The notes under the pieces are model-generated. The model worked only from the letters and a program-made list of their open reading frames with translations, did no database searches and was not told where the DNA came from. A stretch of 64,000 bases of DNA from Rotaria sordida. Lineage: Eukaryota. Location of the stretch: positions 208,393 to 272,392 of the forward strand of contig CAJNOH010000087.1 of assembly GCA_905250005.1 (NCBI GenBank). The letters are read 5' to 3'. The translations under genes were made by a program, and so were the position numbers. Below, piece after piece: positions 1,970-62,416 of this stretch (position 1 is the stretch's first letter; each line of letters begins with the position of its first letter).

Positions 1970-4516
1970 TTACATGATATCACAAATAGCTGATGTTGGA
2001 TTCAATCGATCGTCAGTTTTATATGGTATGTAGATTTTTATTTCTTCGAGAAAAGTAAGATAATCCTTCAAACTAAGTGTTATCGTCAGTTGAGATCTAG
2101 CAATGTCCTCCTTTAGTGAAGAAAACATAGCTTGTTGGCTTGCTTGGCACATATCATAAACTTTATGCAATAACCGACCGTTCATTCCTTCGAAAGCTGG
2201 TAGAAAAATACTAAGTTCTTTATCAAGAAGAAAAGATTTGACATGATCTTTAGTCCACATATCGATACAATGTGGATATTCCCTACAATAAAAAAAACCA
2301 ATTGATTATAGTTTCATGTGATCTAATGTTGAAGTTTTCCTATAATAAGTAGAAGTGTCAGTTAATGCATAGATAGGCAACAATGGATAAAAACATACTG
2401 GTAAAACATTTTACAAAGACATTTTAAAAAATTATTCTGGTAATGGGGACTCAGCCGATTGCATTGTACGTTTAATAAGTGCCAGTACAAAAATTTCTGA
2501 GATTTATTGAATAGAAATCTCGGTGTCAATAAATGTGAATCTGAAGAATCGTTTTGTTATATTTCAGTTGACACAAATGTTACAATGGTAATGCTTTTTT
2601 TTTCATTTTCTAAGCATTGCTATGTCCTTAAAGTGTTTGTCGATGAAAAGTATAAGATAAAGTAAATTTACTAATTAAATTTCCATAATCACTAAACATC
2701 ACTATCTATACAAGTTATCAAGAAGAGTACCTCATGTCTAGAATAACAACTTTCACCCTCAAAAAAAAAAAGACTTACACAACTGGACGCGGTTCTTTAT
2801 TATTTTCAACGCTTGAATTTGTTTTTGGTGTACTATCCATTAACGAACTTGAATTGTGATGGACTTGATTTTGTTCGGCAAGTATTAAGTTTGAATTATT
2901 CATTCGAAATAGTCCTATCTGTTTCTTAAGTTCTTGATAAGCTTTATCGAAACCAAGTTTCGGAAAATCAATATAGATCAATGCTGATGTTAACACTCCA
3001 AGCCATCCATCAGCTTTGTAGCTAGTTGTCATAACTAATGGAATAATATGACATCGACGTTTAACTGCATAGCTAGCTTCCATTTCACAGAAAGGACTCT
3101 GTTTGTAAGCATCAGACATACAAACAAGTACAAATTCTGCATTTTCAATAGCTTTAGCCATAGCATCAAATGTAGCACCATGCATCAATCGAGAATCAAT
3201 CCAAACACATAATTGATCTTTCTCGAGAGAACTTAAAATACGATGACACAGTGTTTTATCACTATGTGAGTAACTTATCATGATATCATATTGTTTTTTA
3301 TCAATCATTAATGAAGAAATTGAAGAAGGTTGTTGTTGTTGTTGTTGAACTGTTTTGATTATTGTTTCTGGTTCTTTTTCTAATTTCCATATTAATGCAG
3401 TAGCTATTAGTTGTAGATCTTGTTGTGATGATGAAGTCAATGTTCGAATATGATTCATGAAAGTATCATTGTTTTTGAGAATAGTCGCAAATTCTTTGTT
3501 AAAGACTAATGCAAGAAGAATTTCAAGTGCAGGAAGTTTTGCTTTGAGTGGATTGAATTGATCTTCGAGAGCACATCGAAGAAAAAGAGAATGACCTTTT
3601 TGTTTGATTAATTCTTCTCGAATTTGATCATGTTGTGTTAATACTAAAGAGAAAAAAAATAAATGATTAGTTTCTGAATGAGTGTATTTATAAAAAAATA
3701 TTTTCTTAACTATTATTATTCCTTGGAAGAAGAAGACAACTAAAACTAACCTTTAAGACTTCGAAGACTATTGTGTAGGCGACCTTCTGTACGAATACCT
3801 CCATCAATAACATTTTTAATAAAAGTAATAAAAACCGTAGCGATTCTACTCGAATTTTGAAGTTGTTTTATATCTGCTTCTGCCATAATAACAGCCAGAA
3901 TTCGATAGGCATGTAAATGAATTTCATCATCATTATTTGATTTTCGTATAAGTACATTGATAAGATCGACTAATTGAAGACTTTTAAGATAAATAACAAG
4001 TTCACTATCCAGAGTAAAATAGAAGAGAATTTGAAGAAGTTGTTGAACAAGAGGTATACCAGCTGGATCTATTGTTACTTGATTTGATTCATTGACAGAC
4101 AGTAGAATACGTTTGATAGTATCAGAGATATGTCGACATGCATCACGTGTGCCGTCACTAGTTATTACATCGCCAAGATCCATTCGAAATAATAAGTTAG
4201 TTAGATGTAGTAAGATATTTATCATAGCTGAATTCCATTTGATATATGGTGGCCGACCAGTATAATTCTCACTAAGCCAACTATTGAACCATTTAAGATG
4301 AGTACGTCGAATTCGTTCAATTATCTCTTGACGTCGATTACCTTCATACCAGGCAATTTGATTTGGATAATGTTCAAGTACGGTAAGTTCTTCATATGAA
4401 CGAGAATTGGACTGTTCTTTAGCAATTTTTTCGAACATTTGTGTATATAAAGGAGAACAAACTTGATCAACAGATCTAGCCAACATATCTGTAAACTCTG
4501 TGTAGACATGTGACAT
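1970..4516 (-). CDS. SARM-like protein, copy A (about 647 aa): an N-terminal alpha-helical domain followed by a TIR domain and a C-terminal SAM domain. Exons 3751..4516, 2779..3643 and 1970..2282.
   Basis: ORFs 3746..4516, 2775..3458 and 1970..2260 sit on one strand. Exon 1 ends AAAG|GTTAGT (phase 1). The acceptor is ..ttctctttag at 3644-3649. The exon-2 reading frame is open upstream of its first Met, reading LTQHDQIREEL... The TIR motif is YDIMISYSHSDKTLCHRI...FVLVCMSDAYKQSPFCEMEASYA. A GTAAGT donor overlaps the TAA stop at 2773-2778. A poly-Y plus AG acceptor sits at 2283-2284, in phase with a SAM-like exon (YPHCIDMWTKDHVKSFLLDKEL...GMNGRLL). No homology search was possible. Confidence 0.7.
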
Positions 4517-7197: not shown

Positions 7198-9473
7198 TCA
7201 GATAAGATTACAAACAGTTGATATTGGATTCAATGAATTGTTAGCTGTGAATGGTATATAGATTTTAATTTCTTCGAGAAAAGTAAGATAGTCTTTTAAA
7301 CTGAGTATTGCATGTTGAGATCTATTAACGTCTTCTTTCAATGATAAAAACATTCCTTGTTGATTGGCTTGACACATGAAATAAGCTTGATGTAGTAATT
7401 TTCCGTTCATTCCGTCTAGGATAGGTAGAAAAGCATCAAGTTCTTTGTCAAGAAGAAACGATTTAACATGATCTTCAGTCCACATATCAATACAATGTGG
7501 GTATTTCCTACAAAAAAAAACAAAAAAAAAAGTTATTTACGTTGGCATTATTCGATCTATAGTTTTCTTATAAATTATACTTTAGATTTTTGATGAAAAT
7601 TGGAAGATAAAATAAATTTACTAATTTAATTTCAAAAATCACTAAACATCATTATCTATACAAGTTATCAAGAAGAGTACCTCATGTCTAGAATAACAAC
7701 TTTCACTCTCAAAAAAAAAAAAGACTTACAAAACTGAACATGGTTCTTCGTTATTTTCTTCACTTGGAACTATTTCCGATGTATTATCCACCAACGAACT
7801 TGAATTATGATGGACTTCATCTTGTTCAGCAAATGTTGAACTTGAATTATCAATTCGAAATAGTTCAATCTGTTTCTTAAGTTCTTGATAAGCTTTATCG
7901 AAACCAAGTTTCGGAAAATCAATATAGATCAATGCTGATGTTAACACTCCAAGCCATCCATCAGCTTTGTATTTAGGTGTCATGACTAATGAAATAATAT
8001 GGCATTGACATTTAACTGCATAACTTGCTTCCATTTCACATAAAGGATTCTGTTTGTAAGCATCAGACATACAAACAAGTACAAATTCTGCATTTTCAAT
8101 AGCTTTAGCCATAGCATCAAATGTAGCACCATGCATCAATCGAGAATCAATCCAAACACATAATTGATCTTTCTCGAGAGAACTTAAAATACGATGACAC
8201 AGTGTTTTATCACTATGTGAGTAACTTATCATGATATCATATTGTTTTTTATCAATCATTAATGAAGAAATTGAAGAAGGTTGTTGTTGTTGTTGTTGTT
8301 GTTGAACTGTTTTGATTATTGTTTCTGGTTCTTTTTCTAATTTCCATATTAATGCAGTAGCTATTAGTTGTAGATCTTGTTGTAATGATGAAGTCAATGT
8401 TCGAATATGATTCATGAAAGTATCATTGTTTTTGAGAATAGTCGCAAATTCTTTGTGAAAGACTAATGCAAGAAGAATTTCAAGTGCAGGAAGTTTTGCT
8501 TTGAGTGGATTGAATTGATCTTCAAGAGCACATCGAAGAAAAAGAGAATGACCTTCTTGTTTGATTAATTCTTCTCGAATTTGATCATGTTGTGTTAATA
8601 CTAAAGAGAAAAAAAAATAAATGATGAACTTCTGAATGAGTGTATTTATAAAATATATTTTCTTAACTATTATTATTCCTTGGAAGAAGAAGAAAACTAA
8701 AACTAACCTTTAAGACTTCGAAGACTATTGTGTAAACGAGCTACATAAGGAACACCACCATCAATAGCTTTCTTAATAAAAGTGATAAAAACAATAGTAA
8801 TTCTATTTGAAATTTGCAGTTGTTTTATATCTGCTTCTGTCATAATAACAGCCAGAATTCGATAGGCTTGTAAATGAATTTCATCATCATTATTTGATTT
8901 TCGTATAAGTACATTCATAAGATCGATTAATTGAAGACTTTTAAGATAAATAACAAGTTTACTATCCAAAGTAAAATAGAAAAGAATCAAAAGAAGTTCT
9001 CGAACAAGAGGTAGAACAGCTGGATCAATGGTTGTTGGATTCGATTTACTAATGTTCAATAAAATACGTTTGATAGTATTAGTGATTTGTTGAAACGCAT
9101 GACGTGTATCATTGCTAGTAATAACATCATCGAGATCCATTCGAAAGAATAAGTTAGTTGCATGCAACATAATATCATTCATAACTGAACTCCATTTAAT
9201 ATATGGTGGTAAACCAGTATATTGCTTACTTAACCAACTATTGAACCATTTAAGATGAGTACGTCGAATTCGTTCAATTATCTCTTCGCGTTTATTTCCT
9301 TTATACCATGTGATCTCATTTGGATAATACATGAGTATAGTACGTTGTTCATTTGAAAGATAATGAGGCTCTTCTCTGGCTACTTTTTGAAACATTTGTG
9401 TATATAAAGAAGAACAAACTTGATCAACCGCTCGAGCAATTTCAACTGTAAACGACGTAGAATTTACAGTCAT
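7198..9473 (-). CDS. SARM-like protein, copy B, the tandem paralog of copy A (helical domain, TIR, SAM). Exons 8708..9473, 7730..8600 and 7198..7507.
   Basis: Exon and intron architecture matches copy A. The donor is AAAG|GTTAGT at 8702-8707. The TIR exon is nearly identical to copy A at nucleotide level. A GTAAGT donor overlaps the stop at 7724-7729. The acceptor before YPHCIDMWTEDHVKSFL (SAM) is present. A (CAA)n polyQ tract codes 7 Q here versus 5 in copy A. Confidence 0.7.
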
Positions 9474-10380: not shown

Positions 10381-13300
10381 TTAAAAACTTGTTGTATTTT
10401 CATCAATATTTTCATTAAAAATTTCTTTTAGAATTTTTTTTCGTTTAATCGATTCAATATATAATCGATTTTCTACTATATCAGGATGATAGGGTGGTAA
10501 TGTTTTTAAAAATTGTTCAGTTGATTTTTCTATACTTTCTATAGCTTCATCTAATTTTCCTTGACTTGAATAAACAAGTGATATATTAAAAAGTGTTATA
10601 CCAACTATTGAATGATTTTCTGGTAATGATATTGATGCAATTTCAAGACTTTTAAAATAACATTGTAATGCTTCTGAATATTGTTCTTCTCGATAATACA
10701 TTAAACCAATATTATTATAAAGTAATGCAAATGATGAATGTGTTAATGGTAAATATTCTTTTTGACATTCTAAAGCAAGTTTTAAATAATATAATGATTC
10801 ATTAGATCGACCAATTTTTAAATAAACATTTCCTAAAGTATAATAAGAAGAACCTAATGTACTAGAATTACGTGGTACAATACGTTCTTGAATTTCAATT
10901 GATTTTTTATAATTATCTATAGCTTCATTATATTTAAGTTGTGCAAGATATGCATCACCTGTATTATCATAAGTTAATGCAAGTTCACCATCATGTGATT
11001 CAGTTACTTGTTCAAGAATTTTGAAAGTACGTTGAAATGATTGAATAGCTTCAGAATATTTTTCTTGTCTTAAAAAAAGAATACCTATATTATTTGTATA
11101 ATTACTAATTGAAAGTAAATCTGGAGTATTTGTACGAAGTTGTATATTAAGTGCTTTTTGATAATATTCATGAGATTTTTCAAAATTATCTAAACGTAAA
11201 TACATTCCAGCTATATTACCATAAAGTGTAGTTAATTCTAATGTATTTGGTGAAATAAAACGAAGAAATGCATCTAATGAAAGATGATATAATTCAACAG
11301 CACGTTTATAATCATCTTGATTACGATGTGATGTTGCAAGTGCAAGACAACTAGCAGCTATTGAAGTTTGAATATTTACATCTGCTTTTAAAGTTTCATC
11401 ATTAAACATTGTTTCAACTATTTGTTCAGCTAATATGTGTTGATTCATTACAATCATTAATTTTATTAAGGTAATCAATTGAGAAAAACTTTTGATTTCC
11501 GTTCGTTTAGTCTCAAGTATTTGTTGAATTTTTTGTTGATCTTCATATTTAACTAATGTTAAATGAATATAAGGAATTTGATTTTCATTAATATTTTCTT
11601 TTTCAACTTTAATTAAACGTCCCATAATACCCATATTTAATAAAACATCATTATTATTATCAATTAAATATCGACGTGAACTTATATTAGCACATTTAAA
11701 ATGTGCTGGTATATCAATACGAATAAGAATTGGTATATAATCTTCAGTTAAAGTTGGAATTTCTTTAGCAATACGAATAGCTCGTAATTGATCTGTTGAA
11801 CCAAATAAAAATTGAGGAAATACAATGAGATCATCATTTAAAAGATTTTTTTGTAAATTATCAAGATCATCTCTTTGCATTGTTTGTCCAAGATAAACTA
11901 TTATTGAATCTTTTACGGATTCATTTTCTATTTGTTGAAATAAATCTTGAATAAATAAACGAAGTTTATATAAAATATCAGGTTCAGGAGTACGAAGAGC
12001 TTTATTTAACATCTAAAAATAAATGATTTGTTTGTTTTTTTTTTTTCATTTTTAACTTTAATTATTTATAAATAAATAAATTTACTTTTGATAAAAAACA
12101 TTGTCTTGAAAACCAATAAATTGCTTGATTTTTTTGATAATTTTTTTCAAATTCATCAATTATTTTTAATTCTTCATCATTACCATCATATTCTTGACGT
12201 GAAAAATTAATTAATTCTTGTAAATTATTTCTATTTTCATTTTTATCAAGAATTATTTCACTTAATAATTGACAATATATATAAGTTGTAGGAAGTGTAG
12301 TTGAATTTGATGACATATTTATATACATTACTAAATCACGTTTTATTTTATGTATATCTTTTGATATTTGTTCATATATATCATTGAAATTTTTATATAA
12401 ACCTTGAACTTTTAATTGTTTAAATGATGAATAATTAATTTCATTATTATTATCAGATAAAATATAAATAGTAAATATTTGTTGAAGTCCTTCAATTCTT
12501 GGAAGAATTGAATTAACAAATAAATTTGAAAGAATAAAGATAATTTTTTCATTGAATACACCATTTATAAATGCAACACAATCATCAATATCATTGAAAA
12601 TTTTTAAGAAATTAATAAGACTACGAAATTGTTTTATTATTGATTCATCAGGATATGAAGAATGTAAATAAATAAGGGTAAAATATTCAACATTACCTTT
12701 TTCTCGAGGTGCACTATCGAATAAGACTTTTGGACTTTCGATTTGTTGTTCTAATTTTAAAAAGAAAAAGAAATAATAGATATATAATAAAACATAGTGG
12801 AATTTTCTATTGCAGAGAAAGTAAGTTCAATCGATTTGTAAGAAGAACATATTACATTTTATGAAACACGATCTAAAAGGAGTTTTGAAGTATAACAGGA
12901 CAAAAATATGCATCCTCCTTCCCCAGCTGTGGCAGATGCTAGTCAAAGACTATCATAAATCGTGGCTAGAGATATGCTGAATCAAGTTTTTTTTAGCAGC
13001 GGTATCGATCTAGAGAAAACTATTCCAAAATTTATTCGTATGAAAACTAAAATAATTCATTAGCACTTGATTTTTTTATTTATTTAAGCTGCGACTAATA
13101 CTTTTTTGAATCTTCTCTCTTGAATATGAAAAAAAATATATTCCAAAATAGATAAAATAAGACAATTTTTCACCGATTAACAAGAGTAGCTCATTCAATT
13201 ATGTTAATTGAATCAAAGTATTTTAAAACGCTTATTGAGTTATCATGCTGTCTTTTATTGCTAGTGAAATTTGATCTGAATAACAAATCGTGATTTCACT

Positions 13301-34469: not shown

Positions 34470-36450
34470 TTTTTACATTTCGAACAGAAATTTTATTTTT
34501 CCTTCTGTTTTTTCGACGGTAAAATGGAATTCCGACAAAAAGAATTTCGCCATCTGAATTTGGACAACGTTGTCGAATTTCTACAATTGTGGAAATTCTT
34601 ATGGAGTTACGATAAAATTTTGTTTTTGCTGGCTATTTTATTGTCCATTTTCCATTAGAATTTGAACAATAATTTATTTAAAAAATACATATGGAAGTAT
34701 ATATAACTAGTAAGGCTTTGATTGATACAACATCAAGTGATGTGTGTGCTGTGCTATAACTATTTTTTTTCAAGTAGAGATCTTTTTATTTTTTTAAATT
34801 TTGTATTTTAATCAAAATCACATCATTATTCGATATCCTTAATATTCTTTTTGGTAACGTCTGAACAAGATTTTGTGTTTCTTTTCATTATCACACTAAA
34901 TCATCTTTTAATATCCTCGAATATCTTTGTTAGTGCATGAACTAAATCATCATTCTTCTCGTTATTTAATGCTAGTGAAAACCCGTGCATGCTGCACGAC
35001 TGTTTTTTCTCTCTGCAAAGCTTCGCATCCATGCTTTAATTTTGACCCAGTACAAACAATCAGATACCTTGCATTATATATCAAGACCTTATAATCTTAC
35101 CCTCTTGTAGCGTTACATCCTTATAGCTTTACCTCCTTGGACCCTTATACCCTTCTAGCCTTCCGGTCGCATCTTCTTATAGCTAGGGATACATTAGTGG
35201 ACTTATGACAGCAGTTGACAGTGCACAGTCGTCCGCAAGGGCTATCCTACACAGATATGCATAAGTTTTCAAGGTCTATCCTATAGGGATATACACAGCT
35301 CTTTGAAGTCTATATTACCGAGGTATCCATAAACCTTCAAGGCATATGTTATTGGAGTATCCATAAGTTCTCAAAGGCTAGTCGCCATGGCTGAGTGGTG
35401 AAGTTGTTCGACACAAAATACCAAGGTATTGCGTTCGAACCTCGGCGTCACCAAACATAGAATGACCCTAGATAAGTCACTAACGGCTATTTGTCTCGGA
35501 TTACCCGTACGATAGCACACTGACTACATTGTGACATATATAAGCTTTTATAGCTAGTATATGGTTAGTCAATGGGTATGGGTAGCTAAAATGAGCGGAG
35601 AAACTCTAAGTCACGCCAGCTTTCTGTCCAGAGCTACAGCTAGAAATAGTTGTAGGAAAAATATCGGGCTAATGAAAATGTCCTCGAACATCACCCTATA
35701 CTGAAAGGTAGCCGAAAGGTGGGGTATTCTTCTTCTTCTTCTTCTTCTCAAAGGCTATCCTAGGAATACTCCTAAGTCCTCATGGCTAATCCTATGAGAA
35801 TACGCGTAAGTCATCAAGAGCCATAATATAGATGTTTCCATTAGTGCATATGTGACAGCTACATTTCACGGTGACTTACCTGCTGACCCATTTCAAGCTC
35901 TTGAGGATTTATGAGTGTGTCCATAGCATGGGCTTTGATCACTTATGAGTCCACATTTCATAGGATAGGCCCTAAGGACTAATCCGTACTCTCATAGCAT
36001 AGGCTTTGAGGACTTATGGATATCCCATATAATAGTCATTGAGGATCCATGGGTACTTCCATAGGATAGCCTTATGGTCTTTAGCCTGAATTTTGATTGG
36101 CTAAAATAATTGACCAATGGAAGAAGGACCAGACGTGACAGTCGACATTAGTATACAGATGTAATTGATAAATATGTTGTTATATTGTCAGTGAAAAGTC
36201 GACAATAAAAAAAAATTTAAATCATGCACGTTGTCAAAATTCTAATGGAAAATGGACAAGAAAATTCTCAGCAAAAAGAAATTCTGTCCTAATTCCATAA
36301 GAATTTCGACAATTGTAGAAATTCGACAACGTTGTCCAAATTCTACTAGAATTTCGACATGTTTCAAAATTCTACTAGAATTTGGACATTGTCGAAATTC
36401 AGATGGCGAAATTCCTTTTGTCGATATTCCGTAGAACCTTTTCGACTGAT
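34470..36450. repeat. Complex nested palindrome or foldback structure of about 2 kb. Outer inverted arms of about 150-190 bp enclose a minisatellite of about 35 bp present in both orientations.
   Basis: The outer arm 34500-34650 (GGAATTCCGACAAAAAGAATTTCGCCATCTGAATTTGGACAACGTTGTCGAATTTCTACAATTG...) is the reverse complement of 36250-36430. Tandem units such as GGCTATCCTATAGGGATATACACAGCTCTTTGAAG lie in direct orientation at about 35225-35850 and in inverted orientation at 35895-36100. A tRNA-like or SINE-like GC-rich segment lies at 35385-35460. Confidence 0.6.
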
Positions 36451-37097: not shown

Positions 37098-37984
37098 GTG
37101 TCACATATCTAGAATCTCGGGCATGCTGGAGAAGTGTAGGGAGATGCGAGAGAAGTGCATACTAGGGCGATGCAATAGAAATGTAGGGAAATGTGAGAGA
37201 AATGTGGGGAGATGTGAGAGAAGTGTAGGGAGATGTGAGAGAAGTGTGGGGAGGTGTGGGAGAAGTGTGGGGAGATGTGGGAGACGTGTGAGGAGATGTG
37301 AGAGAAATGTGGGGACATGTGGGAGAAGTGTAGAGAGATGTTGGAGAAGTGCGGGAGATGTGGGAGGGTGTGAGTGTGGGTGGGTGTGGGTATGGGTAAA
37401 TGTGGGTGTGGGTGGGTGTGGATGCGGGGTGTGTGGGTGTAGATGCGGGTGTGTGGGTGTGGGTATGGGTGAGTGTGGGTGTGGGTGGGTGTGGATGCGG
37501 GGTGTGTGGGTGTAGATGCGGGTGTGTGGGTGTGACTGTGGATAGAGTAAAGAAACACTCACACCCACATCCTCGCATCTCTAGGCATTTCTCTCACATC
37601 TCCTGCATACTTCTCCCGTATCTCCCGCACTTCTTCCACATCTATCCATACTTCTCTTGCATCTCCCCACATTTTTCCTACACCTTCAGACACTTCTCTT
37701 GCATCTCTCACACTTCTCCCGCATCTCTCCGCACTTCTCCCACATCTCCTCACACTTCCCCACATCTCTCCACACTTCTCTCGCATTTTCCTACACTTCT
37801 CGCACATCTCCCCACACTTCTTTCACATCTCCCCACACTTCTTTCACATCTCTCCACACTTCTCTCACATCTCCACGCACTTTTCTCGCGTCGCCCTACA
37901 CTTCTCTTGCATCTCCCTAGTATGCACTTCTCTCGCATCTCCCCACACTTCTCCAGCATGCCCGAGATTCTGGATATGTGACAC
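37098..37984. repeat. Palindromic minisatellite (21-bp units GGGAGATGTGAGAGAAGTGTR) whose inverted arms flank a G-rich telomere-like core.
   Basis: The left arm GTGTCACATATCTAGAATCTCGGGCATGCTGGAGAAG... at 37098- is the reverse complement of the right arm ending ...CTCCAGCATGCCCGAGATTCTGGATATGTGACAC at 37984. Between them lie tandem 21-mers. The overlapping 140-190 aa ORFs on both strands are artefacts of these repeats. Confidence 0.7.
37370..37540 (+). repeat. Interstitial tract of degenerate (TGTGGG)n-like repeats resembling a telomeric repeat.
   Basis: The tract reads GTGTGGGTGGGTGTGGGTATGGGT...GTGTGGGTGTGGGTGGGTGTGG and so on. The G-rich strand is on + only. A higher-order repeat of about 60 bp occurs twice. 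My recollection is that TGTGGG is the bdelloid rotifer telomere unit; this is unverified. Confidence 0.5.
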
Positions 37985-38309: not shown

Positions 38310-41300
38310 ATGAGTTCGACTTCATCAAGTGCTATCGATGAAAACAATGCTGCAGGACCTGTCTATCGGATTCTACCGTATTATTATATACATGTATTAG
38401 ATCAGAACACCAATATTACACGCCTCGAAAATGGTCCGAAGACTTTTATTAAGCAGGACAATGAAACGGTAACAGTCGGCCCAGAAAAAATGATCATCAT
38501 TCCGTGAGTGCCTGCATGGTAAGGCGAAAAAGTAAAATATAATTTTTTTAAAATTCTTGTAGTCCACTACATTATTGCATTGTCGAATCGCCAGTGATAC
38601 GCAATGAGGAGGGTGAAGTAGAATTCGACCAGAATGGTCAAGCGAAATTGGCCCATGCCGATATCGATATTCGTCTGACACGACCTGATCAAATCCCGTT
38701 TCCTCTCTATCCAGGAGAAATTCTTCGCCAAGTATAAAATTTTGAAAAAGTTGTTTACTCGTATTAACTCTTATTTATAGCCTGTCACTGCACTTACAGT
38801 CGTTCCAGCTAATTCAGCACTGCGATTAAAAGCTGTACTCGATTTTGAAGATTCACATAAGGAACAACGACGAGCTGGTGATGAGTGGATGTTCGAAGGT
38901 CCAGCTACATACATTCCTCGTAAAGAAGTCAATGTCGAACAACAAATTAAAGCAACTATTACAGTCAATGTCCCTAATAACAACACTAAAAAAATTTTCT
39001 TCCTTGTTCAACTCGGTTCTCAGCTATTTTACACTCGACTAAAAATACTTTTATATATGCATAATCTATGGAGTTTCCTCTTTCAAATGGTATAACAGCG
39101 GTCTTTCTCTGAAATGCAATGGCGGAGAAATCAGCGGTCTACGATAACGAACTGCTACTGTTGTTATTAGGGACAGTTTCCCTAATAACAACACTCAGCT
39201 ATTTTTTGTCCCTAGTAACAACACTTAAGCAAAATTTAAGCCAAATCAGACTTTTTAAGAGAAAAAACTTTTTTTTACGCGTTTTCTTTGAAAAACAAGC
39301 AGAGACTCCGCTGACAACTTTGTAGAGCATGTCAAACTCTATCTAAATCTAAAGGTTCATGAGAAAAAAAATTTCCTTTAATGAGATATAAAATCTAAAA
39401 GGAACATGTCTAACAGTGTCCAAAAAATAGGTGACCCTAATAACAACACCAAGCTAATTTTTGTCCCTAATAACAACACCTCCACCGAAATTGGTGTATG
39501 AGTGTGCATAAAACAAAAACTAATTTCCATTTTAATAGCTTGATGGATTGTGATCGTTTTTCACAACTTTATTTCATTTTTCATGATAGGTCAATTTTTT
39601 GTGCCTGGGGTACCCCTCAGGTATTCGAAAAAATATTTTTGTTCTCGTTTGAGTTCTCACATTTATAAATCGATAGAACTCAGTGTTCTGATTACGAATG
39701 TTATGTTATTTTTCAAAATTCATCGAGTAATAAGAAAAATCTAGACCATTCAAGACAGGCATAAAAATCAGTTTTTGGCTTATAAGACCATTATTATCCG
39801 TCTAAAACACGTTGGAAATAAGCTCATTCGACGCAGAAGTTTTTTCTCTATCAGAATGTATATAAGGCTTTAGGAAACAATTATGTTTTTCAATCAATAA
39901 TTATCGAATACCGGGTCCAATGGGTCTCTATGGTCATTTACTATGATTTTTTCCAGCTTGTGGGAATATAGTTTACTCAGGCACATCATCGAGATTTTTT
40001 TACCACAAACATAATTCAATGAGCTCTTTCTCGTAAAACTATTTTCGACTTAAAATTTAAGAATAAAAAAAAGGTCAAAAAAACACTGTTGGGGACTATA
40101 GAGCACCATTGGGCTCGGTATTCAATAATTATCGATTGAAAAACATAATTGTTTCCTAAAGCCTTATATACATTCTGATAGAGAAAAAACTTCTGCGTCG
40201 AATGAGCTTATTTCCAACGTGTTTTAGACGGATAATAATGGTCTTATAAGCCAAAAACTGATTTTTATGCCTGTCTTGAATGGTCTAGATTTTTCTTATT
40301 ACTCGATGAATTTTGAAAAATAACATAACATTCGTAATCAGAACACTGAGTTCTATCGATTTATAAATGTGAGAACTCAAACGAGAACAAAAATATTTTT
40401 TCGAATACCTGAGGGGTACCCCAGGCACAAAAAATTGACCTATCATGAAAAATGAAATAAAGTTGTGAAAAACGATCACAATCCATCAAGCTATTAAAAT
40501 GGAAATTAGTTTTTGTTTTATGCACACTCATACACCAATTTCGGTGGAGGTGTTGTTATTAGGGACAAAAATTAGCTTGGTGTTGTTATTAGGGTCACCT
40601 ATTTTTTGGACACTGTTAGACATGTTCCTTTTAGATTTTGTATCTCATTAAAGGAAATTTTTTTTCTCATGAACCTTTAGATTTAGATAGAGTTTGACAT
40701 GCTCTACAAAGTTGTCAGCGGAGTCTCTGCTTGTTTCTCAAAGAAAACGCGTGAAAAAAAGTTTTTTCTCTTAAAAAGTCTGATTTGGCTTAAATTTTGC
40801 TTAAGTGTTGTTACTAGGGACAAAAAATAGCTGAGTGTTGTTATTAGGGAAACTGTCCCTAATAACAACAGTAGCAGTTCGTTATCGTAGACCGCTGATT
40901 TCTCCGCCATTGCATTTCAGAGAAAGACCGCTGTTATACCATTTGAAAGAGGAAACTCCATAGATTATGCATATATAAAAGTATTTTCAGTCGAGTGTAA
41001 AATAGCTGAGAACCGAGTTGAACAAGGAAGAAAATTTTTTTAGTGTTATTATTAGGGACATTGACTGTATTGGTCCTAATCAAGCTATTCGACTTTGCGC
41101 CGAAAAAGAACTTATTGATCGATCAGGTCAACATCGTGTCACTGGCGAAGAGTGGTTAGTCAAAAAGACCGGTGCTTATTTGCCACTAGCCTATGTAAAT
41201 TCTCTAGTATTTTGTTTTCCTCATTACCTATCTATTTCGATTGTTTAGGAAACGATTGTATTAGTTCAAGATGCCTATGCTTTAACTGAGAAGAAAGCTC

Positions 41301-43513
41301 TTCATCTTCGAGCCCTTAAAACTTTCATTGACGATTTTGGTAAAAAACGTTTGAGTGGAGAAGAATGGCTTGCAACGCATATTGATACGGAAACACACAT
41401 CCTCAGTATATATGAAGAACTTGTTGCCGTTGTCGATGCAATCACACTCAATTCACGACAGTATTGTGTTATTCTCGATCCCGTTATCGATAGTAAACCA
41501 CAACTTGGAAGAAAGGTCGATATTTTATTAAGAGATAAATATAAGAAACTATGATTTAATTATTTTATTTAGAAAATGATCTTTGGTGAAATATCATTCT
41601 TTCTCCAACCGGGCGAAAAACTCTTGACAGGCATTCAAAATATTTTTATTTTGGATGAAGACGAAGGTGTTATTGTCAAATGTAATGAAACATTCGAAGA
41701 TGAACAAGCAAAGAAAATACGTACTCCGGGTGATCTATGGATGATTCGAGGACCAACGTAAGTTACTTTTTCTTTATTAAATAACATTTTGAATATGTAG
41801 CTATTTTATTTGAATTCTTAGTGAATATATTCCACCTACTCAAGTAGAAGTTGTCACTCGACGAAAGGCAATTCCATTAGATGAAAATGAAGGCATCTAT
41901 ATTCGTAATATCAAAAGTGGTCGTGTTCGAGCAGTCATCGGTGAAACTTACATGTTAACACAAGATGAAGAACTTTGGAATAAAGAATTATCCGAACAAA
42001 TCGAATATTTGCTTACGCGTGATCCATTAACCGAACGCTATTCTCTTATGCGTGAATCGGCTTCAGCCAAAAATGCATCGACAGCTACTGCCTTTAATAG
42101 TCAATCAAACAGTTCGAAATCAATTACTACCAAACGTGACAAATGGAAATTGATCACATATCGTGTTCCACATAATGCAGCCGTTCAAATCTATGATTAC
42201 AAACTAAAGAAAGCTCGCATTGTCTTCGGTCCAGAACTTGTCATGCTTGAACCTGATGAACATTTTAGTCTGATTTCTCTAAGTGGTGGCATACCCAAAT
42301 GTCCTAATCAAGTTAACTCCCTTTGTTTACTACTCGGTCCAAATTTCTTTACTGATATCATCGTCATTGAGACGGCCGATCATGCTCGTCTTTCCCTTCA
42401 ACTTGCTTATAGTAAGTCAAAAACACAGCAAAAACATTCAAAAATATACGTGATTGATTATTCTTTATTTTCCAGACTGGCACTTTGAAGTGAAAGACAT
42501 AAATGATAAGAGAGAAGCGGCTAAACTCTTTTCAGTGCCTGATTTTGTCGGGGATACATGCAAAGCTATTGCTTCACGTATTCGTGGTGCTGTAGCTGGT
42601 ACTCAATTTGATGATTTCCATAGGAACTCCGCTCACATCATTCGTGAATCTGTATTCGGTCTTGATGCAAATCAGTGTGTACGTGATCAAATTGTCTTTC
42701 CACAAAATAATCTTGTCATTACATCGATCGACATTCAAAGTGTTGAACCTGTCGATCAACGTACGCGTGATGCGCTACACAAGAGTGTGCAACTGGCCAT
42801 TGAGGTATGATATTGAATTGTTCGTCTCAATCGAAATGCAAGCAACACTTTCTATTTTAGATAACGACGAATTCACAAGAAGCTGCTGCTAAACATGAAG
42901 CTTCACGTCGCGAACAAGAAGCTAGAGGTTTTTTAGAACGACAACGTATCAAAAATGAAGCTGAAGCCGAACAGATTCGACAACTACTACTCGAATCACA
43001 AGCTCTATCGGCGGCAATCGAATTAACTGGTCAAACCAAAGCAGAAGCTATAAGTCGTGCTGAATCGAAGCGTATTGAAGGCGAAACAGCCGTTTACCAA
43101 GGTATATACTTTGTTACATTTAAATAATGAATACCTGAGCTTTTTTTTCTTGGTCCATTGCAGCGCGTCGTAAAGCTGAAGCAACCAAAATCGAAGCTGA
43201 AGCTGAATTGGCCCGTTTAAAATTAGTACGTGAAGCTGAAATCAAGTTTTTACGCGAACAAAACGAACTAGAAATTAAGAAAAAAGCCGAGTTGTCTCGA
43301 ATTGAAACTGAAAAATTCAAATTACAAGTCGAATCAATCGGTACTTCGACTATTCAAAGTATTGCTACATCAGGTCCCGAAACTCAAGTCAAACTTTTGC
43401 AAGCACTCGGAATACAATCGATGCTCGTCACCGATGGCAAAAATCCGATCAATCTCATGGACTTTGGACAAGGTCTACTCGGGAGTTTAACAGCTCGTCA
43501 TGTAATCAACTAA
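38310..43513 (+). CDS. MVP: Major vault protein, about 876 aa, 9 exons. Exon 3 is interrupted by a 2.1-kb foldback element.
   Basis: Colinear match to the MVP sequence I know: [25 protein letters not shown]..; [80 protein letters not shown]..; [14 protein letters not shown]; and the C-terminal coiled coil ..[28 protein letters not shown]. Exons: 38310..38503, 38563..38731, 38781..38961 joined to 41070..41194, 41249..41515 (weak G|GTCGAT donor), 41573..41757, 41822..42411, 42476..42804, 42861..43101 and 43164..43513. Confidence 0.9.
38962..41067. mobile_element. Non-autonomous long-inverted-repeat (foldback) element, Tc1/mariner-like, inserted in the MVP coding exon. It has TA target-site duplications and CAGT termini.
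   Basis: Arms of about 1 kb are near-perfect reverse complements. Identical small ORFs 39119..39325(+)/40704..40910(-) and 39550..39744(+)/40285..40479(-) arise from these arms. The termini are CAGTCAATGTCCCTAATAACAACAC...GTGTTATTATTAGGGACATTGACTG. TA occurs at 38960-61 and 41068-69. A subterminal motif TCCCTAATAACAACAC is repeated at least 4 times per arm. Removing the element while keeping one TA joins ..KATI to [14 protein letters not shown].. in frame, which aligns gap-free with MVP ..[18 protein letters not shown].. Confidence 0.8.
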
Positions 43514-59713: not shown

Positions 59714-62416
59714 CTACAGAATATTACATAAAGCAGATTCTTCTTTTAATCTTGATTGATTGACAAGTTTTTTCAAACCACTCAAAAATCGACTATATTC
59801 ATCGAGATGAAAAAGATCTTTTCCAATCTTATTTCTCAATCGATTATATTCTTCTTCAATACGTAATGGTGAATCAATAATTAATTGTCCATAAATAATA
59901 AGTTGAGATCCATCAATAAAATTCAATGCATTTAATAAATAATCAGATAAATGATTTTGTTGAAACCAATATTTTATGTCATTACGTGTCCATTGATCAG
60001 GTAATTTAGTTGATATTGTTTGGGCATCATTTAATGAAAGAATTGATGTAAATGATGATATTAAATTAGAAAATTGTTCTCTACTTACACAATGATCACG
60101 CATTCGATGTTCATATTCATCATATTGTGCATCATCATGTGATAATAACTTCATATATGTTAGTAAAGCTCGACCAGATGATAGTTGAAGAGTAGATGGT
60201 GGTAAATGAAGCCATTGTTGTACTTCTTCACAAGTCCATTGTTCGATTGGAGAAGTAGGTATAATGTCTGATACAGTAAGATTTGATTGTAATTGTATGT
60301 CAGAAATTTCTATAATTGGATTGGTGTTTACATGTAATGATGATGTTTCAATAGTTTGAATATTAGTAATTGTGTTTGAATCAATTTCTGATTTTGATTT
60401 AAGTTTTAAATGAGATCCATGTGAATAAGCAAGCTTGTTATTATTTTGTGGTACTTCATCTCGTACAGTAATTAAACCTAAAAGAGTTTCCATAACTTCT
60501 TCATCATTTTTCTCACCTCCAAAACGAACCCATGTTGCGGAACCAGCACGAATTTCAAACCAATCTTCTGGTATATAATCTTTTCCTATATAAACAGGTA
60601 CCATACGTTTGTTACGTTTATCAGCATGAACGACTTCCCTTCGACAGCTTTTTGAACCACAATAATTTTCTGTTACAATCATTACAATAACATTACATTG
60701 AGTTATTGCTTTAGCAATTTCTTCCCAATCATCTTCATATGGTGGTGATAATTTATTAAAATCTACCCAAATATCACCTTGATAATGTTCTTGAATTTTT
60801 GTAACAAGGTTTTTACAAAATTTGGCGTCTTTATGTGAATAAGAAATCATAACTTTTATTTGATTATCATCATCATCATCATGATTATGATTATCTTCAA
60901 TTGGTTGTATATCCATTTGTATACAATCAAGATTAAAAAGAATTCCTTTAGCTGCGCGTTTCATGTCTAATTCATATTCATCATTTGATTGATTTTTTGC
61001 TCTTTGTTCAACGAATGAAAGAAATTCATTATTTAATTTTAATTTAATAGAATATTCAGATAAAAAACTAATTGACCAAAATATTGTATAAAGTGATGAA
61101 CAAATAATTGTATTAAGTACTGTTGATTCACATATGTTATTAAATAAAAGAAATTTTTCAATAAATAATTCATATATATTGTCACGTGAAATAATATAAG
61201 TAAGCAATGCATCATTAACAACTAATTTAACTAGTCCCTCTAAATATTCACAAACATTATATGGACCACAGGTAAGATCAACAGAATCAAATGCTTTCAT
61301 TGTTTGTTCAAGAATATAATCAAGAATTGTTTGAATATTAGAGACACTTTCATTTTTTAATTCCTTCGGTTCCAATAATTTTGCATAAAGAAGATAATAA
61401 GCCATACGAATATCTTTATCGTCTTCGTTATAATCAATAACTGACGATTCGGATAAATATTGTTCTTTCCATTGCTTAATACTATCAATCATTTTTAATT
61501 CATTTAGTGCTTTTACACCAATGGGATGTCGAGCTAGATTATGTAATATATTAATAATGCAAGACCATGATTCAAGAGAAATATATTTTATATGATCTCG
61601 TTCAATTGATATCCATTGTAAAATAGCATTTGGATAACCAATTTGAACAAAATAGGGAACAAATCCATAGATATCTGTCATGTTAAGAATCCATTTAAAA
61701 ATTGATGTATAGACTTGAGATTGTTGATCATTATTTAAAAAATAATTATTTATATAAGTTATAAATGCTTGTAAAAGTCGTTCGGTTGAATTATTTAATT
61801 GAAAAAATGTTGGAATATTTTTATGTGAAACAAATATTGAATAAGAAATACCTCTTCTTGTATAAAGCGATCGTGCACCAATAGAAGCAAACAAATGAAG
61901 AAAATATTCATCCATATTTGATAGAATATGTTTTTTATTAATAAGATAATTAATTGTTGAATCATTAATTAAATAAGTAAGTGATAAATCAAAATAATAA
62001 TCACATAACACTGGATATATTGCCATATTTATATACATTTGAAAACGAATTGCATCGAATAGAGCTTCTAAGAGATTAGATGGAATTATTGAAGAATATC
62101 GTTTGATAAAATGAGAAAAGGAATTTATTTCAAAATAATTAAGAGTAGACATCCGTTTCTGATTTTCATCAATTGTTCTTATATCCCATTCATCATCGAT
62201 TTTTTGCAATTGATCACGAAGATTAATTAATGGATGAGACTCGATTTTCTTCAGCATATCATCGTGAAATAGAAGAGTTTCTAGTTGATGAATACAATTA
62301 AATATTGGATCGTTGTTAGTAGTCATACTGCTCGCACGAAAACAACAAATAATCAAGTGTACGTTTTTTGTCCTTCGTTTTTTTTTCTTTCTACAAATAT
62401 GAAAGGTATATTTCAT
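59714..62416 (-). CDS. SARM-like single-exon protein with an N-terminal alpha-helical (ARM/HEAT-like) region of about 500 aa, a TIR domain and two tandem SAM domains. The likely start is MTTNNDP near 62326.
   Basis: The TIR motif reads IKVMISYSHKDAKFCKNLVTKIQEHYQGDIWVDF..VIVMIVTENYCGSKSCRREVVHA..MVPVYI. SAM1 reads IEQWTCEEVQQWLHLPP..GRALLTYM. SAM2 reads DQWTRNDIKYWFQQNHLSDYLLNALNFIDGSQLI. The first 30 codons of the listed ORF (MKYTFHICRKKKKRRTK..) look like translated A-rich leader. Confidence 0.75.
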   Translation of the reverse strand: MKYTFHICRKKKKRRTKNVHLIICCFRASSMTTNNDPIFNCIHQLETLLFHDDMLKKIESHPLINLRDQLQKIDDEWDIRTIDENQKRMSTLNYFEINSFSHFIKRYSSIIPSNLLEALFDAIRFQMYINMAIYPVLCDYYFDLSLTYLINDSTINYLINKKHILSNMDEYFLHLFASIGARSLYTRRGISYSIFVSHKNIPTFFQLNNSTERLLQAFITYINNYFLNNDQQSQVYTSIFKWILNMTDIYGFVPYFVQIGYPNAILQWISIERDHIKYISLESWSCIINILHNLARHPIGVKALNELKMIDSIKQWKEQYLSESSVIDYNEDDKDIRMAYYLLYAKLLEPKELKNESVSNIQTILDYILEQTMKAFDSVDLTCGPYNVCEYLEGLVKLVVNDALLTYIISRDNIYELFIEKFLLFNNICESTVLNTIICSSLYTIFWSISFLSEYSIKLKLNNEFLSFVEQRAKNQSNDEYELDMKRAAKGILFNLDCIQMDIQPIEDNHNHDDDDDNQIKVMISYSHKDAKFCKNLVTKIQEHYQGDIWVDFNKLSPPYEDDWEEIAKAITQCNVIVMIVTENYCGSKSCRREVVHADKRNKRMVPVYIGKDYIPEDWFEIRAGSATWVRFGGEKNDEEVMETLLGLITVRDEVPQNNNKLAYSHGSHLKLKSKSEIDSNTITNIQTIETSSLHVNTNPIIEISDIQLQSNLTVSDIIPTSPIEQWTCEEVQQWLHLPPSTLQLSSGRALLTYMKLLSHDDAQYDEYEHRMRDHCVSREQFSNLISSFTSILSLNDAQTISTKLPDQWTRNDIKYWFQQNHLSDYLLNALNFIDGSQLIIYGQLIIDSPLRIEEEYNRLRNKIGKDLFHLDEYSRFLSGLKKLVNQSRLKEESALCNIL

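What the first reader, a model, noticed from the sequence alone, without database searches (positions are those of the whole stretch)
38962..41067. A foldback element with TA target-site duplications sits precisely inside a coding exon of the major vault protein gene; clean excision restores the MVP frame.
A 2,106-bp perfect long palindrome (termini CAGTCAATGTCCC.../...GGGACATTGACTG) is bounded by TA on both sides and interrupts MVP exon 3. Deleting it while keeping one TA gives ..[36 protein letters not shown]. This aligns with the MVP I know ([33 protein letters not shown]) without any gap. The insertion is therefore in formerly continuous coding sequence, not in an intron. No canonical GT/AG pair within the element preserves phase, so this allele is probably null, unless the hairpin is removed at the RNA or DNA level. 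TA duplication plus CAGT ends point to a Tc1/mariner-derived foldback MITE.
Basis: partly seen in the sequence, partly recalled or inferred. Interest (0 to 1): 0.8.

Follow-up and report, generated by a model that had tools for sequence, protein, structure and literature searches.

The report
Foldback transposon interrupting a rotifer vault gene
One of the two copies of a major vault protein gene in a cultured clone of the asexual rotifer Rotaria sordida is broken by a recently inserted 2.1-kb hairpin-shaped DNA transposon; this is a real but ordinary case of a jumping gene knocking out a gene.

Summary
The element is real and lies exactly at 38962-41067. It has two 991-nt inverted arms (98% complementary overall, 99.5% in the outer 934 nt), a 124-nt spacer, CAGT termini and TA on both sides. 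It is not a perfect palindrome.

The window is Rotaria sordida, a bdelloid rotifer, from the diploid 10x assembly GCA_905250125. The element splits exon 3 of a 9-exon major vault protein (MVP) gene. Removing it plus one TA gives an intact 876-aa MVP.

The predicted empty site, GCAACTATTATTGGTCC, exists in three places:
- the other haplotype of the same clone;
- assemblies of three wild individuals;
- the orthologue in a sister species.

So the insertion is derived and heterozygous, with a 2-bp TA duplication. Unspliced, it truncates MVP at residue 181.

Two metagenome contigs carry the same 28-nt terminus next to TA, and the same ordered set of 15-nt motifs. This points to a family of non-autonomous, Tc1/mariner-like foldback transposons. 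No transposase was found.

In-frame GT..AG pairs do exist, and the public gene model uses one, but none restores the native protein.

Verdict: a new member of a known kind, of modest interest.

The parts
38310..43513 (+). Major vault protein gene: 9 exons, introns 49-64 nt, all GT..AG
   Evidence: Exon model built. With the element removed it gives an 876-aa product. Pfam Vault/MVP_shoulder families match. It is 99% identical to R. sordida MVP P0001 and 89% to the 876-aa Silwood-2 MVP P0002.
38781..38961 (+). Exon 3, part upstream of the insertion (ends ...ACT ATT A, includes the left TA)
38960..38961 (.). Left copy of the TA target-site duplication
   Evidence: Empty sites carry a single TA: GCAACTAT-TA-TTGGTCC.
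38962..41067 (.). Foldback-type non-autonomous DNA transposon, 2106 bp
   Evidence: No ORF longer than 68 aa. Predicted RNA hairpin MFE is -1702 kcal/mol.
38962..39952 (.). Left arm, 991 nt
   Evidence: There are 19 mismatches to the right arm, 5 of them in the outer 934 nt.
39953..40076 (.). Central non-palindromic spacer, 124 nt
40077..41067 (.). Right arm, 991 nt
41068..41069 (.). Right copy of the TA target-site duplication
41070..41194 (+). Exon 3, part downstream of the insertion
39093..39095 (+). First in-frame stop (TAA) if the element is retained in the mRNA. The product is 181 MVP residues plus 44 element-encoded residues.
38972..38986 (+). 15-nt motif CCCTAATAACAACAC, copy 1 of the left arm (inside the terminus)
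   Evidence: 12 copies found against 0.07 expected. Positions are collinear with L009.
39158..39172 (-). Motif copy 2 of the left arm (inverted orientation)
39180..39194 (+). Motif copy 3 of the left arm
39210..39224 (+). Motif copy 4 of the left arm
39435..39449 (+). Motif copy 5 of the left arm
39465..39479 (+). Motif copy 6 of the left arm
40550..40564 (-). Motif copy, right arm (mirror of 39465)
40580..40594 (-). Motif copy, right arm (mirror of 39435)
40805..40819 (-). Motif copy, right arm (mirror of 39210)
40835..40849 (-). Motif copy, right arm (mirror of 39180)
40857..40871 (+). Motif copy, right arm (mirror of 39158)
41043..41057 (-). Motif copy inside the right terminus (1 mismatch)
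38885..41055 (+). Computationally predicted 2171-nt 'intron' of the public gene model (protein P0003, 795 aa). It hides the insertion, deletes 21 MVP residues and adds DIDC.
   Evidence: The model was made with BRAKER. There is no evidence that this intron is actually used.

Best explanation
The feature is a non-autonomous, foldback-shaped cut-and-paste DNA transposon. It inserted at a TA dinucleotide in exon 3 of one haplotype of an MVP gene in Rotaria sordida.

Shown:
- An exact 2-bp TA duplication.
- Empty sites in the homologous haplotype of the same clone, in three conspecific individuals and in a sister species.
- An otherwise intact host gene that has been under purifying selection.
- Related copies elsewhere with an identical 28-nt terminus flanked by TA.

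Inferred:
- The element is moved in trans by a Tc1/mariner-type (IS630-Tc1-mariner) transposase. That enzyme would bind the 15-nt motif CCCTAATAACAACAC, which occurs six times per arm, once inside each terminus.
- A transcript that retains the element stops 44 codons into it, after MVP residue 181. It lacks most vault repeats, the shoulder and the cap-helix. This haplotype is therefore a null allele and its mRNA is probably a target of nonsense-mediated decay.
- The loss is tolerated because the insertion is heterozygous and R. sordida has further MVP paralogues at 78-79% identity.
For: - Anatomy.
- Host gene and repaired frame.
- Organism and locus: R. sordida, with window 28490-53513 100% identical to L003 of GCA_905250125, the diploid 10x assembly of one clonal culture.
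- Empty sites: GCAACTATTATTGGTCC in L007 (same assembly, other haplotype) and in L001, L002 and L004-L006 (individuals RSOR410, RSOR504, RSOR408). The Silwood-2 orthologue L010 also has it.
- Selection: dN/dS against Silwood-2 is 0.15, with dS 0.34.
- Truncation: the retained-element product is 225 aa.
- Family: L008 and L009 share the 28-nt terminus, are flanked by TA, and are 277/278 identical to each other at two different sites. Their arms are about 72% identical to the window element. The six motif positions are collinear, and motif columns are 88% identical against 65% elsewhere.
- Paralogues: P0005 and P0016.
Against: - No transposase was found. The element has no ORF above 68 aa. Six-frame Pfam scans of the 2.2-kb relative L009 gave nothing. 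A search with the element's pseudo-ORFs found nothing. The superfamily assignment is therefore indirect.
- Copy number in the R. sordida genome could not be measured with these tools.
- No transcript data were examined, so 'null allele' is an inference. In-frame cryptic GT..AG pairs exist.
- The two assemblies that carry the insertion derive from one 10x/Supernova data set. The insertion therefore has no independent read-level confirmation.
- The wild individuals' assemblies show only the other haplotype group. Absence of the insertion from their matching haplotype is not proven.
Confidence: 0.8

Rival explanations
1. The segment is removed as an intron. A cryptic donor in exon 3 and an acceptor in the right terminus (38885..41055, as in the public gene model), or another in-frame pair, yield a slightly altered but functional MVP.
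For: - Several in-frame GT..AG pairs exist.
- The deposited model P0003 (795 aa, UniProt A0A814YLY4) uses 38885/41055.
- The acceptor TGTTATTATTAG looks like genuine acceptors of this gene.
Against: - The model is a BRAKER/AUGUSTUS prediction, not a transcript.
- The intron would be 2171 nt in a gene whose eight real introns are 49-64 nt.
- The donor GTGGAT is unlike the gene's donors, which are GTAAGT, GTGAGT, GTATxx and similar.
- The acceptor lies inside a roughly 1-kb RNA stem with MFE -1702 kcal/mol.
- The product would lose 21 conserved residues of a vault repeat and gain 4 foreign ones.
Confidence: 0.07
2. The palindrome, or its placement in MVP, is an assembly or library artefact of the 10x/Supernova data.
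For: - The insertion is seen only in the two assemblies made from one 10x data set.
- Inverted chimeras are a known artefact class (own knowledge).
- No junction-spanning ORF is on record in other read-derived collections.
Against: - There is an exact TA duplication at a site that is TA in all empty alleles.
- The arms differ at 19 positions and are joined by a unique 124-nt spacer. An artefact would be expected to give a perfect, spacer-less palindrome.
- The same 28-nt terminus next to TA occurs in independent metagenome contigs, with the same ordered internal motifs.
Confidence: 0.05
3. The element is removed precisely at the DNA or RNA level, through programmed excision as with ciliate internal eliminated sequences or through hairpin-directed processing. 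The interrupted gene would then stay functional, and the family could live in exons.
For: - The ends TA-CAGTCA fit the ciliate end consensus TAYAGYNR, which itself resembles Tc1/mariner ends (own knowledge).
- A second family member (L008) also lies where homologous carboxylesterases have continuous coding sequence.
Against: - No such process is known in rotifers (own knowledge).
- Bdelloid gene-rich DNA is about 50% coding (PMC2861651). Two exon hits out of two assessable copies are therefore not significant.
- The empty allele in the same clone is a different haplotype, with 45-69 differences per 5.4 kb. It is not an excision product.
Confidence: 0.03
4. It is an old, fixed or domesticated structure of the MVP locus.
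For: None found.
Against: - Empty sites occur in the homologous haplotype, in three conspecific individuals and in the Silwood-2 orthologue.
- Silwood-1 and Silwood-2 proteins read straight through the site.
Confidence: 0.01

Closest known systems
Non-autonomous Tc1/mariner (IS630-Tc1-mariner) elements with long inverted ends carrying repeated transposase-binding direct repeats, such as Bari2/Bari3 and Bari-derived MITEs (PMC4877112)
   Same: - 2-bp TA target duplication.
- Terminal inverted repeats starting with CAGT.
- A short motif repeated several times in each end, including inside the terminus.
- No coding capacity.
   Different: - The arms are about 1 kb, against about 250 bp in Bari, and make up 94% of the element.
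- There are six motif copies per arm, one of them inverted, against three in Bari.
- No cognate transposase has been identified, so membership of the superfamily is inferred.
Drosophila Foldback (FB) elements
   Same: Architecture only: very long inverted arms around a short loop, able to form a hairpin.
   Different: - FB arms are built from tandem subrepeats and FB makes 9-bp duplications (own knowledge).
- Here the arms are mostly unique sequence with dispersed 15-mers, and the duplication is TA.
Foldback-like DNA transposon indel reported in bdelloid gene-rich contigs (Adineta vaga / Philodina roseola), cited in PMC2861651
   Same: [quoted passage not shown]
   Different: The sequence of that element was not available here, so relatedness is unknown. 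It was not reported to lie in a coding exon.
LTR retrotransposon insertion into a midasin-like coding sequence in Rotaria magnacalcarata (Nowell et al. 2021, PMC7943196)
   Same: A recent transposon insertion, polymorphic within a species, that puts a premature stop into a bdelloid protein-coding gene.
   Different: That case is an 8.1-kb class I element. This one is a 2.1-kb class II foldback element, shown to be heterozygous within one clone.
Introner elements and ciliate internal eliminated sequences
   Same: Transposon-derived segments lying in coding sequence. The ciliate sequences are also bounded by TA.
   Different: - No GT..AG pair removes exactly the element plus one TA.
- There is no evidence of programmed elimination, and the host is a metazoan.

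Membership tests
Tc1/mariner (IS630-Tc1-mariner) superfamily, non-autonomous derivative | Insertion at TA with a 2-bp TA target-site duplication | tested here: met
   The filled site is TA-element-TA. Seven empty sites carry a single TA. The related copies L008 and L009 are also preceded by TA.
Tc1/mariner (IS630-Tc1-mariner) superfamily, non-autonomous derivative | Terminal inverted repeats with Tc1/pogo-type 5'-CAGT ends | tested here: met
   The termini are CAGTCAATGTCCC... and ...GGGACATTGACTG. That CAGT is typical of Tc1/pogo ends comes from my own knowledge.
Tc1/mariner (IS630-Tc1-mariner) superfamily, non-autonomous derivative | DD(E/D) transposase of the superfamily, in the element or in an autonomous partner with the same ends | tested here: inconclusive
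   - No ORF above 68 aa in the element.
- No Pfam match in six frames of L009.
- No protein hits to the element's pseudo-ORFs.
- No transposase in the 64-kb window.
- The R. sordida genome could not be searched by DNA with these tools.
Tc1/mariner (IS630-Tc1-mariner) superfamily, non-autonomous derivative | Repeated transposase-binding motifs in the ends (IR-DR type) | tested here: inconclusive
   The 15-mer occurs 12 times against 0.07 expected. Its positions are collinear in a relative with 72% arm identity, and motif columns are better conserved than the rest, 88% against 65%. Binding itself was not tested.
Drosophila-type Foldback (FB) family | Arms composed of tandem subrepeats | tested here: not met
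   No tandem arrays lie within 38962-41067. The arms carry only dispersed 15-mers.
Drosophila-type Foldback (FB) family | 9-bp target-site duplication | tested here: not met
   The duplication is 2 bp (TA).
MITE (miniature inverted-repeat transposable element) | Small size (roughly under 800 bp) and high copy number | tested here: not met
   The element is 2106 bp. Copy number is unknown: one copy in the window and in the fetched R. sordida loci.
Introner elements | The element supplies or recruits splice sites so that the element plus one duplication copy is spliced out exactly | tested here: not met
   The three equivalent 2108-nt removals start with TA, AC or CA and end with TG, GT or TA. 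No GT..AG pair gives the native sequence.
Ciliate-type internal eliminated sequences | Developmentally programmed precise excision at TA | not testable with these tools
   The host is a rotifer. The empty allele in the clone is a distinct haplotype, not an excision product.
Major vault protein (host gene) | Vault repeats, shoulder domain and C-terminal cap-helix, full length | tested here: met
   Five Pfam MVP families match the repaired 876-aa product. It is 64-66% identical to annotated MVPs of molluscs, cnidarians and echinoderms.

The most novel reading that the evidence does not exclude
This foldback family may be tolerated in coding exons because host cells remove it. Removal could be precise excision at the TA boundaries, or processing of the roughly 1-kb RNA hairpin. 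Two of the two copies whose flanks could be assessed lie in coding sequence: MVP here and a carboxylesterase in L008. A weaker version is that the transcribed hairpin acts as an endogenous double-stranded RNA source, feeding the expanded bdelloid RNA-interference machinery to silence the family.
Probability: 0.04. Interest if true: 0.85.

Novelty: new member of a known kind. Interest (0 to 1): 0.3.

Why it matters
- Bdelloid rotifers are the textbook ancient asexuals, in which theory predicts that transposons should go extinct or be tamed.
- This locus shows a class II element that moved recently enough to be heterozygous within one clone, and that landed in a conserved, selected coding exon.
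- It complements the single retrotransposon case highlighted by Nowell et al. 2021.
- It supplies a terminus and a motif with which the family and its transposase can be found.
- It shows how automatic annotation can hide such insertions as false introns. The 795-aa 'MVP' in public databases is such a model.

Tried and rejected
- Old or domesticated structure: rejected, because empty sites occur in the other haplotype, in three conspecific individuals and in a sister species.
- Exact splicing, introner-like: rejected, because no GT..AG pair removes 2108 nt.
- Other superfamilies judged by duplication length (3-bp TWA, 4-bp TTAA, 8-9 bp): rejected, because the filled and empty sites differ by exactly the element plus TA.
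- Search for coding capacity or a partner transposase, all negative:
  - ORF list;
  - Pfam on six frames of L009 (a first attempt failed because of stop codons);
  - protein-database search with concatenated element ORFs;
  - Pfam on all long ORFs of the window.
- Search for more copies:
  - The terminus is absent from the bacterial/archaeal genome collection and from viral contigs.
  - Only two metagenome contigs match it.
  - Junction-spanning ORFs are not on record in read-derived assemblies.
- The supplementary files of Nowell et al. held as text contain no element sequence.
- Rfam: no family matches anywhere in the window.

Full report
**1. Observation**

The sequence at 38962-41067 is as described, with two corrections.
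- It begins CAGTCAATGTCCCTAATAACAACAC and ends with the reverse complement of that sequence, with one mismatch.
- TA lies immediately outside both ends, at 38960-61 and 41068-69.
- The repeat finder reports arms of 998 nt at 98% complementarity with 124 nt between them. Seven nt of each reported arm are flanking sequence, so within the element the arms are 991 nt each.
- Position by position there are 19 arm mismatches: 5 in the outer 934 nt and 14 in the inner 57 nt. The central 124 nt (39953-40076) are not palindromic.
- So the palindrome is long and nearly perfect, not perfect.
- As RNA it would fold into a stem of about 1 kb, with MFE -1702 kcal/mol.
- A 15-nt motif, CCCTAATAACAACAC, occurs 12 times in the element and nowhere else in the 64-kb window. 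That is six per arm, one of them inverted and one inside each terminus, against 0.07 expected by chance.
- The element has no ORF longer than 68 aa.

**2. Host gene**

- I built a 9-exon model for 38310-43513 on the + strand. Every intron is GT..AG and 49-64 nt long.
- With the element and one TA removed, the model encodes an 876-aa protein without stops.
- That protein matches all five Pfam MVP families. It is 64-66% identical to annotated MVPs across animals.
- With the element retained, the frame runs 44 codons into the element and stops at 39093-39095. The product has 225 aa, only 181 of them MVP.

**3. Origin of the window**

- The best protein hits are from Rotaria sordida, a bdelloid rotifer.
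- Window 28490-53513 is 100% identical to contig CAJNOL010000893.1 of GCA_905250125 (L003).
- The supplement of Nowell et al. 2021 (PMC7943196) identifies that assembly as Rd_10x_m. It is the diploid 'megabubbles' Supernova assembly of 10x linked reads from one clonal culture.
- The public protein for this allele (P0003, 795 aa) reads ...[15 protein letters not shown].... The annotation pipeline, BRAKER, bridged the insertion with an invented 2171-nt intron from GT at 38885 to AG at 41055. This drops 21 conserved residues and adds four residues encoded by the element's terminus.

**4. Empty sites**

The sequence GCAACTATTATTGGTCC, with a single TA and no element, is present in:
- L007, contig CAJNOL010000929.1 of the same diploid assembly, which is the other haplotype of the same clone;
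- L001 and L002, individual RSOR410;
- L004 and L005, individual RSOR504;
- L006, individual RSOR408;
- L010, the orthologue in Rotaria sp. Silwood-2.

Consequences:
- The flanks of these loci are 98.7-99.6% identical to the window.
- The insertion is therefore derived, it made a 2-bp TA duplication, and it is heterozygous in the sequenced clone.
- Across 5.4 kb of flank, the window haplotype differs from all the others by 45-69 substitutions. L004-L007 differ among themselves by 3-12.
- The wild individuals' largely collapsed assemblies thus show only the other haplotype group. Whether their matching haplotype carries the element is not known.
- The gene was functional until recently. dN/dS against the Silwood-2 orthologue is 0.15, at dS 0.34.

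**5. The element belongs to a family**

- A scan of metagenome contigs with the 25-nt terminus found two contigs, L008 and L009.
- Both have the identical 28-nt end, CAGTCAATGTCCCTAATAACAACACTAA, directly preceded by TA.
- Their element parts are 277/278 identical to each other although the flanks differ. That genome therefore holds at least two young copies.
- Their arms are only about 72% identical to the window element. Yet the six motif copies sit at the same relative positions and orientations: 11, 197(-), 219, 249/250, 474 and 504.
- Motif columns are 88% identical, against 65% for the rest. This is what is expected of protein-binding sites. In Bari elements of the Tc1-mariner superfamily, repeated 18-nt direct repeats in long inverted ends are the transposase-binding sites, and a TA duplication is the superfamily's hallmark (PMC4877112).
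- L009 continues for 2.1 kb beyond the terminus without folding back and without any Pfam match in six frames.
- In L008 the element abuts an ORF that matches the C-terminal third of carboxylesterases. The closest named homologue is from the bdelloid Adineta steineri, at 61% identity. Homologues read straight through the insertion point. That copy too appears to sit in coding sequence.

**6. Mechanism**

Shown: a cut-and-paste-type insertion with a TA duplication, no coding capacity, and a truncated reading frame.

Inferred:
- mobilisation in trans by a Tc1/mariner-type transposase that recognises the 15-mer;
- loss of function of this haplotype;
- probable nonsense-mediated decay, since six introns lie downstream of the stop;
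- tolerance of the loss, because the other haplotype is present and R. sordida has further MVP genes at 78-79% identity (P0005, P0016).

The foldback shape is most simply explained as two copies of one transposon end joined head to head. That is inference, not something tested here.

**7. Splicing**

- GT at 38964, 38970, 39006 or 39090 paired with AG ending at 41005, 41017 or 41026 keeps the frame open. So do 38885 or 38891 paired with 41043 or 41055.
- None of these reproduces the native protein.
- Each would make an intron of about 1.9-2.2 kb in a gene whose real introns are 49-64 nt.
- The better-looking acceptors lie inside the RNA stem.
- I rate productive splicing as unlikely, but it was not tested.

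**8. Comparison and novelty**

- The element behaves like a non-autonomous Tc1/mariner derivative with extreme inverted-repeat/direct-repeat (IR-DR) ends.
- It is 'foldback' in shape only. It fails two defining features of Drosophila FB elements: arms made of tandem subrepeats, and a 9-bp duplication.
- It is too large to be called a MITE.
- Foldback-like indels in bdelloid gene-rich DNA have been mentioned before (PMC2861651).
- Recent insertions that disrupt coding sequence have been documented for an LTR element (PMC7943196).
- This is therefore a new member of a known kind. It is a clean, well-controlled example, not a new phenomenon.

**9. Limits**

- I could not search the R. sordida genome by DNA, so copy number and the autonomous partner are unknown.
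- No reads or transcripts were examined.
- Both assemblies with the insertion come from one data set.
- An artefact is nevertheless unlikely, given the exact TA duplication, the non-identical arms, the spacer and the independent family members.

Noticed in passing
window 42977-43053 (exon 8 of MVP), compared with L007 5380-5385: The other haplotype of the same clone (L007) has no transposon but lacks 77 nt of exon 8, which is a frameshift. Its public gene model (P0122, 758 aa) skips 58 residues. If the deletion is real, both haplotypes of this MVP copy are damaged in the cultured clone. The deletion is absent from the wild individuals (L005).
   Followed up: partly
window 37098-37984: A second foldback-like structure of about 890 nt lies about 330 nt upstream of the MVP start codon. 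Its arms are made of 21-nt tandem repeats (GGAGAAGTGTAGGGAGATGTGA and its complement) around a G-rich core. It is present in all haplotypes, but there it aligns at only about 95% with many gaps.
   Followed up: partly
L001 2614-3551, corresponding to window ~31996: Individual RSOR410 carries an element of about 940 nt that the window lacks. It has terminal inverted repeats of about 31 nt or more (CAATGGTTTGCAAAAAAACTTGGAACAAA...) and TA on both sides. This is a second polymorphic TA-flanked DNA transposon within 7 kb of the MVP gene.
   Followed up: partly
L008 329-971 (metagenome contig Ga0116229_10357769): A related copy of the same transposon family abuts the C-terminal third of a carboxylesterase reading frame. 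Homologous proteins, including one from Adineta steineri, are continuous across that point, so this copy also appears to interrupt coding sequence.
   Followed up: partly
window 38310-38503 (MVP exon 1): All public R. sordida gene models for this MVP start at MIIIPP and omit exon 1 (60-64 residues). That exon is open in the window and is present in the 876-aa Silwood-2 protein P0002.
   Followed up: partly
window 2089-4516 and 7314-9473: A tandem duplication with a period of about 4.95 kb (78-99% identity in blocks) holds TIR-domain ORFs.
   Followed up: partly
window 10381-12012 (-) and 59714-62416 (-): Two long intronless ORFs lie elsewhere in the window: a 543-aa TPR-repeat ORF at 10381-12012 (-) and a 900-aa TIR-domain ORF at 59714-62416 (-).
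   Followed up: partly
window 36316-36404: A 29-nt tandem repeat of 2.9 copies. Haplotype L007 differs here by an indel of about 43 nt.
   Followed up: no
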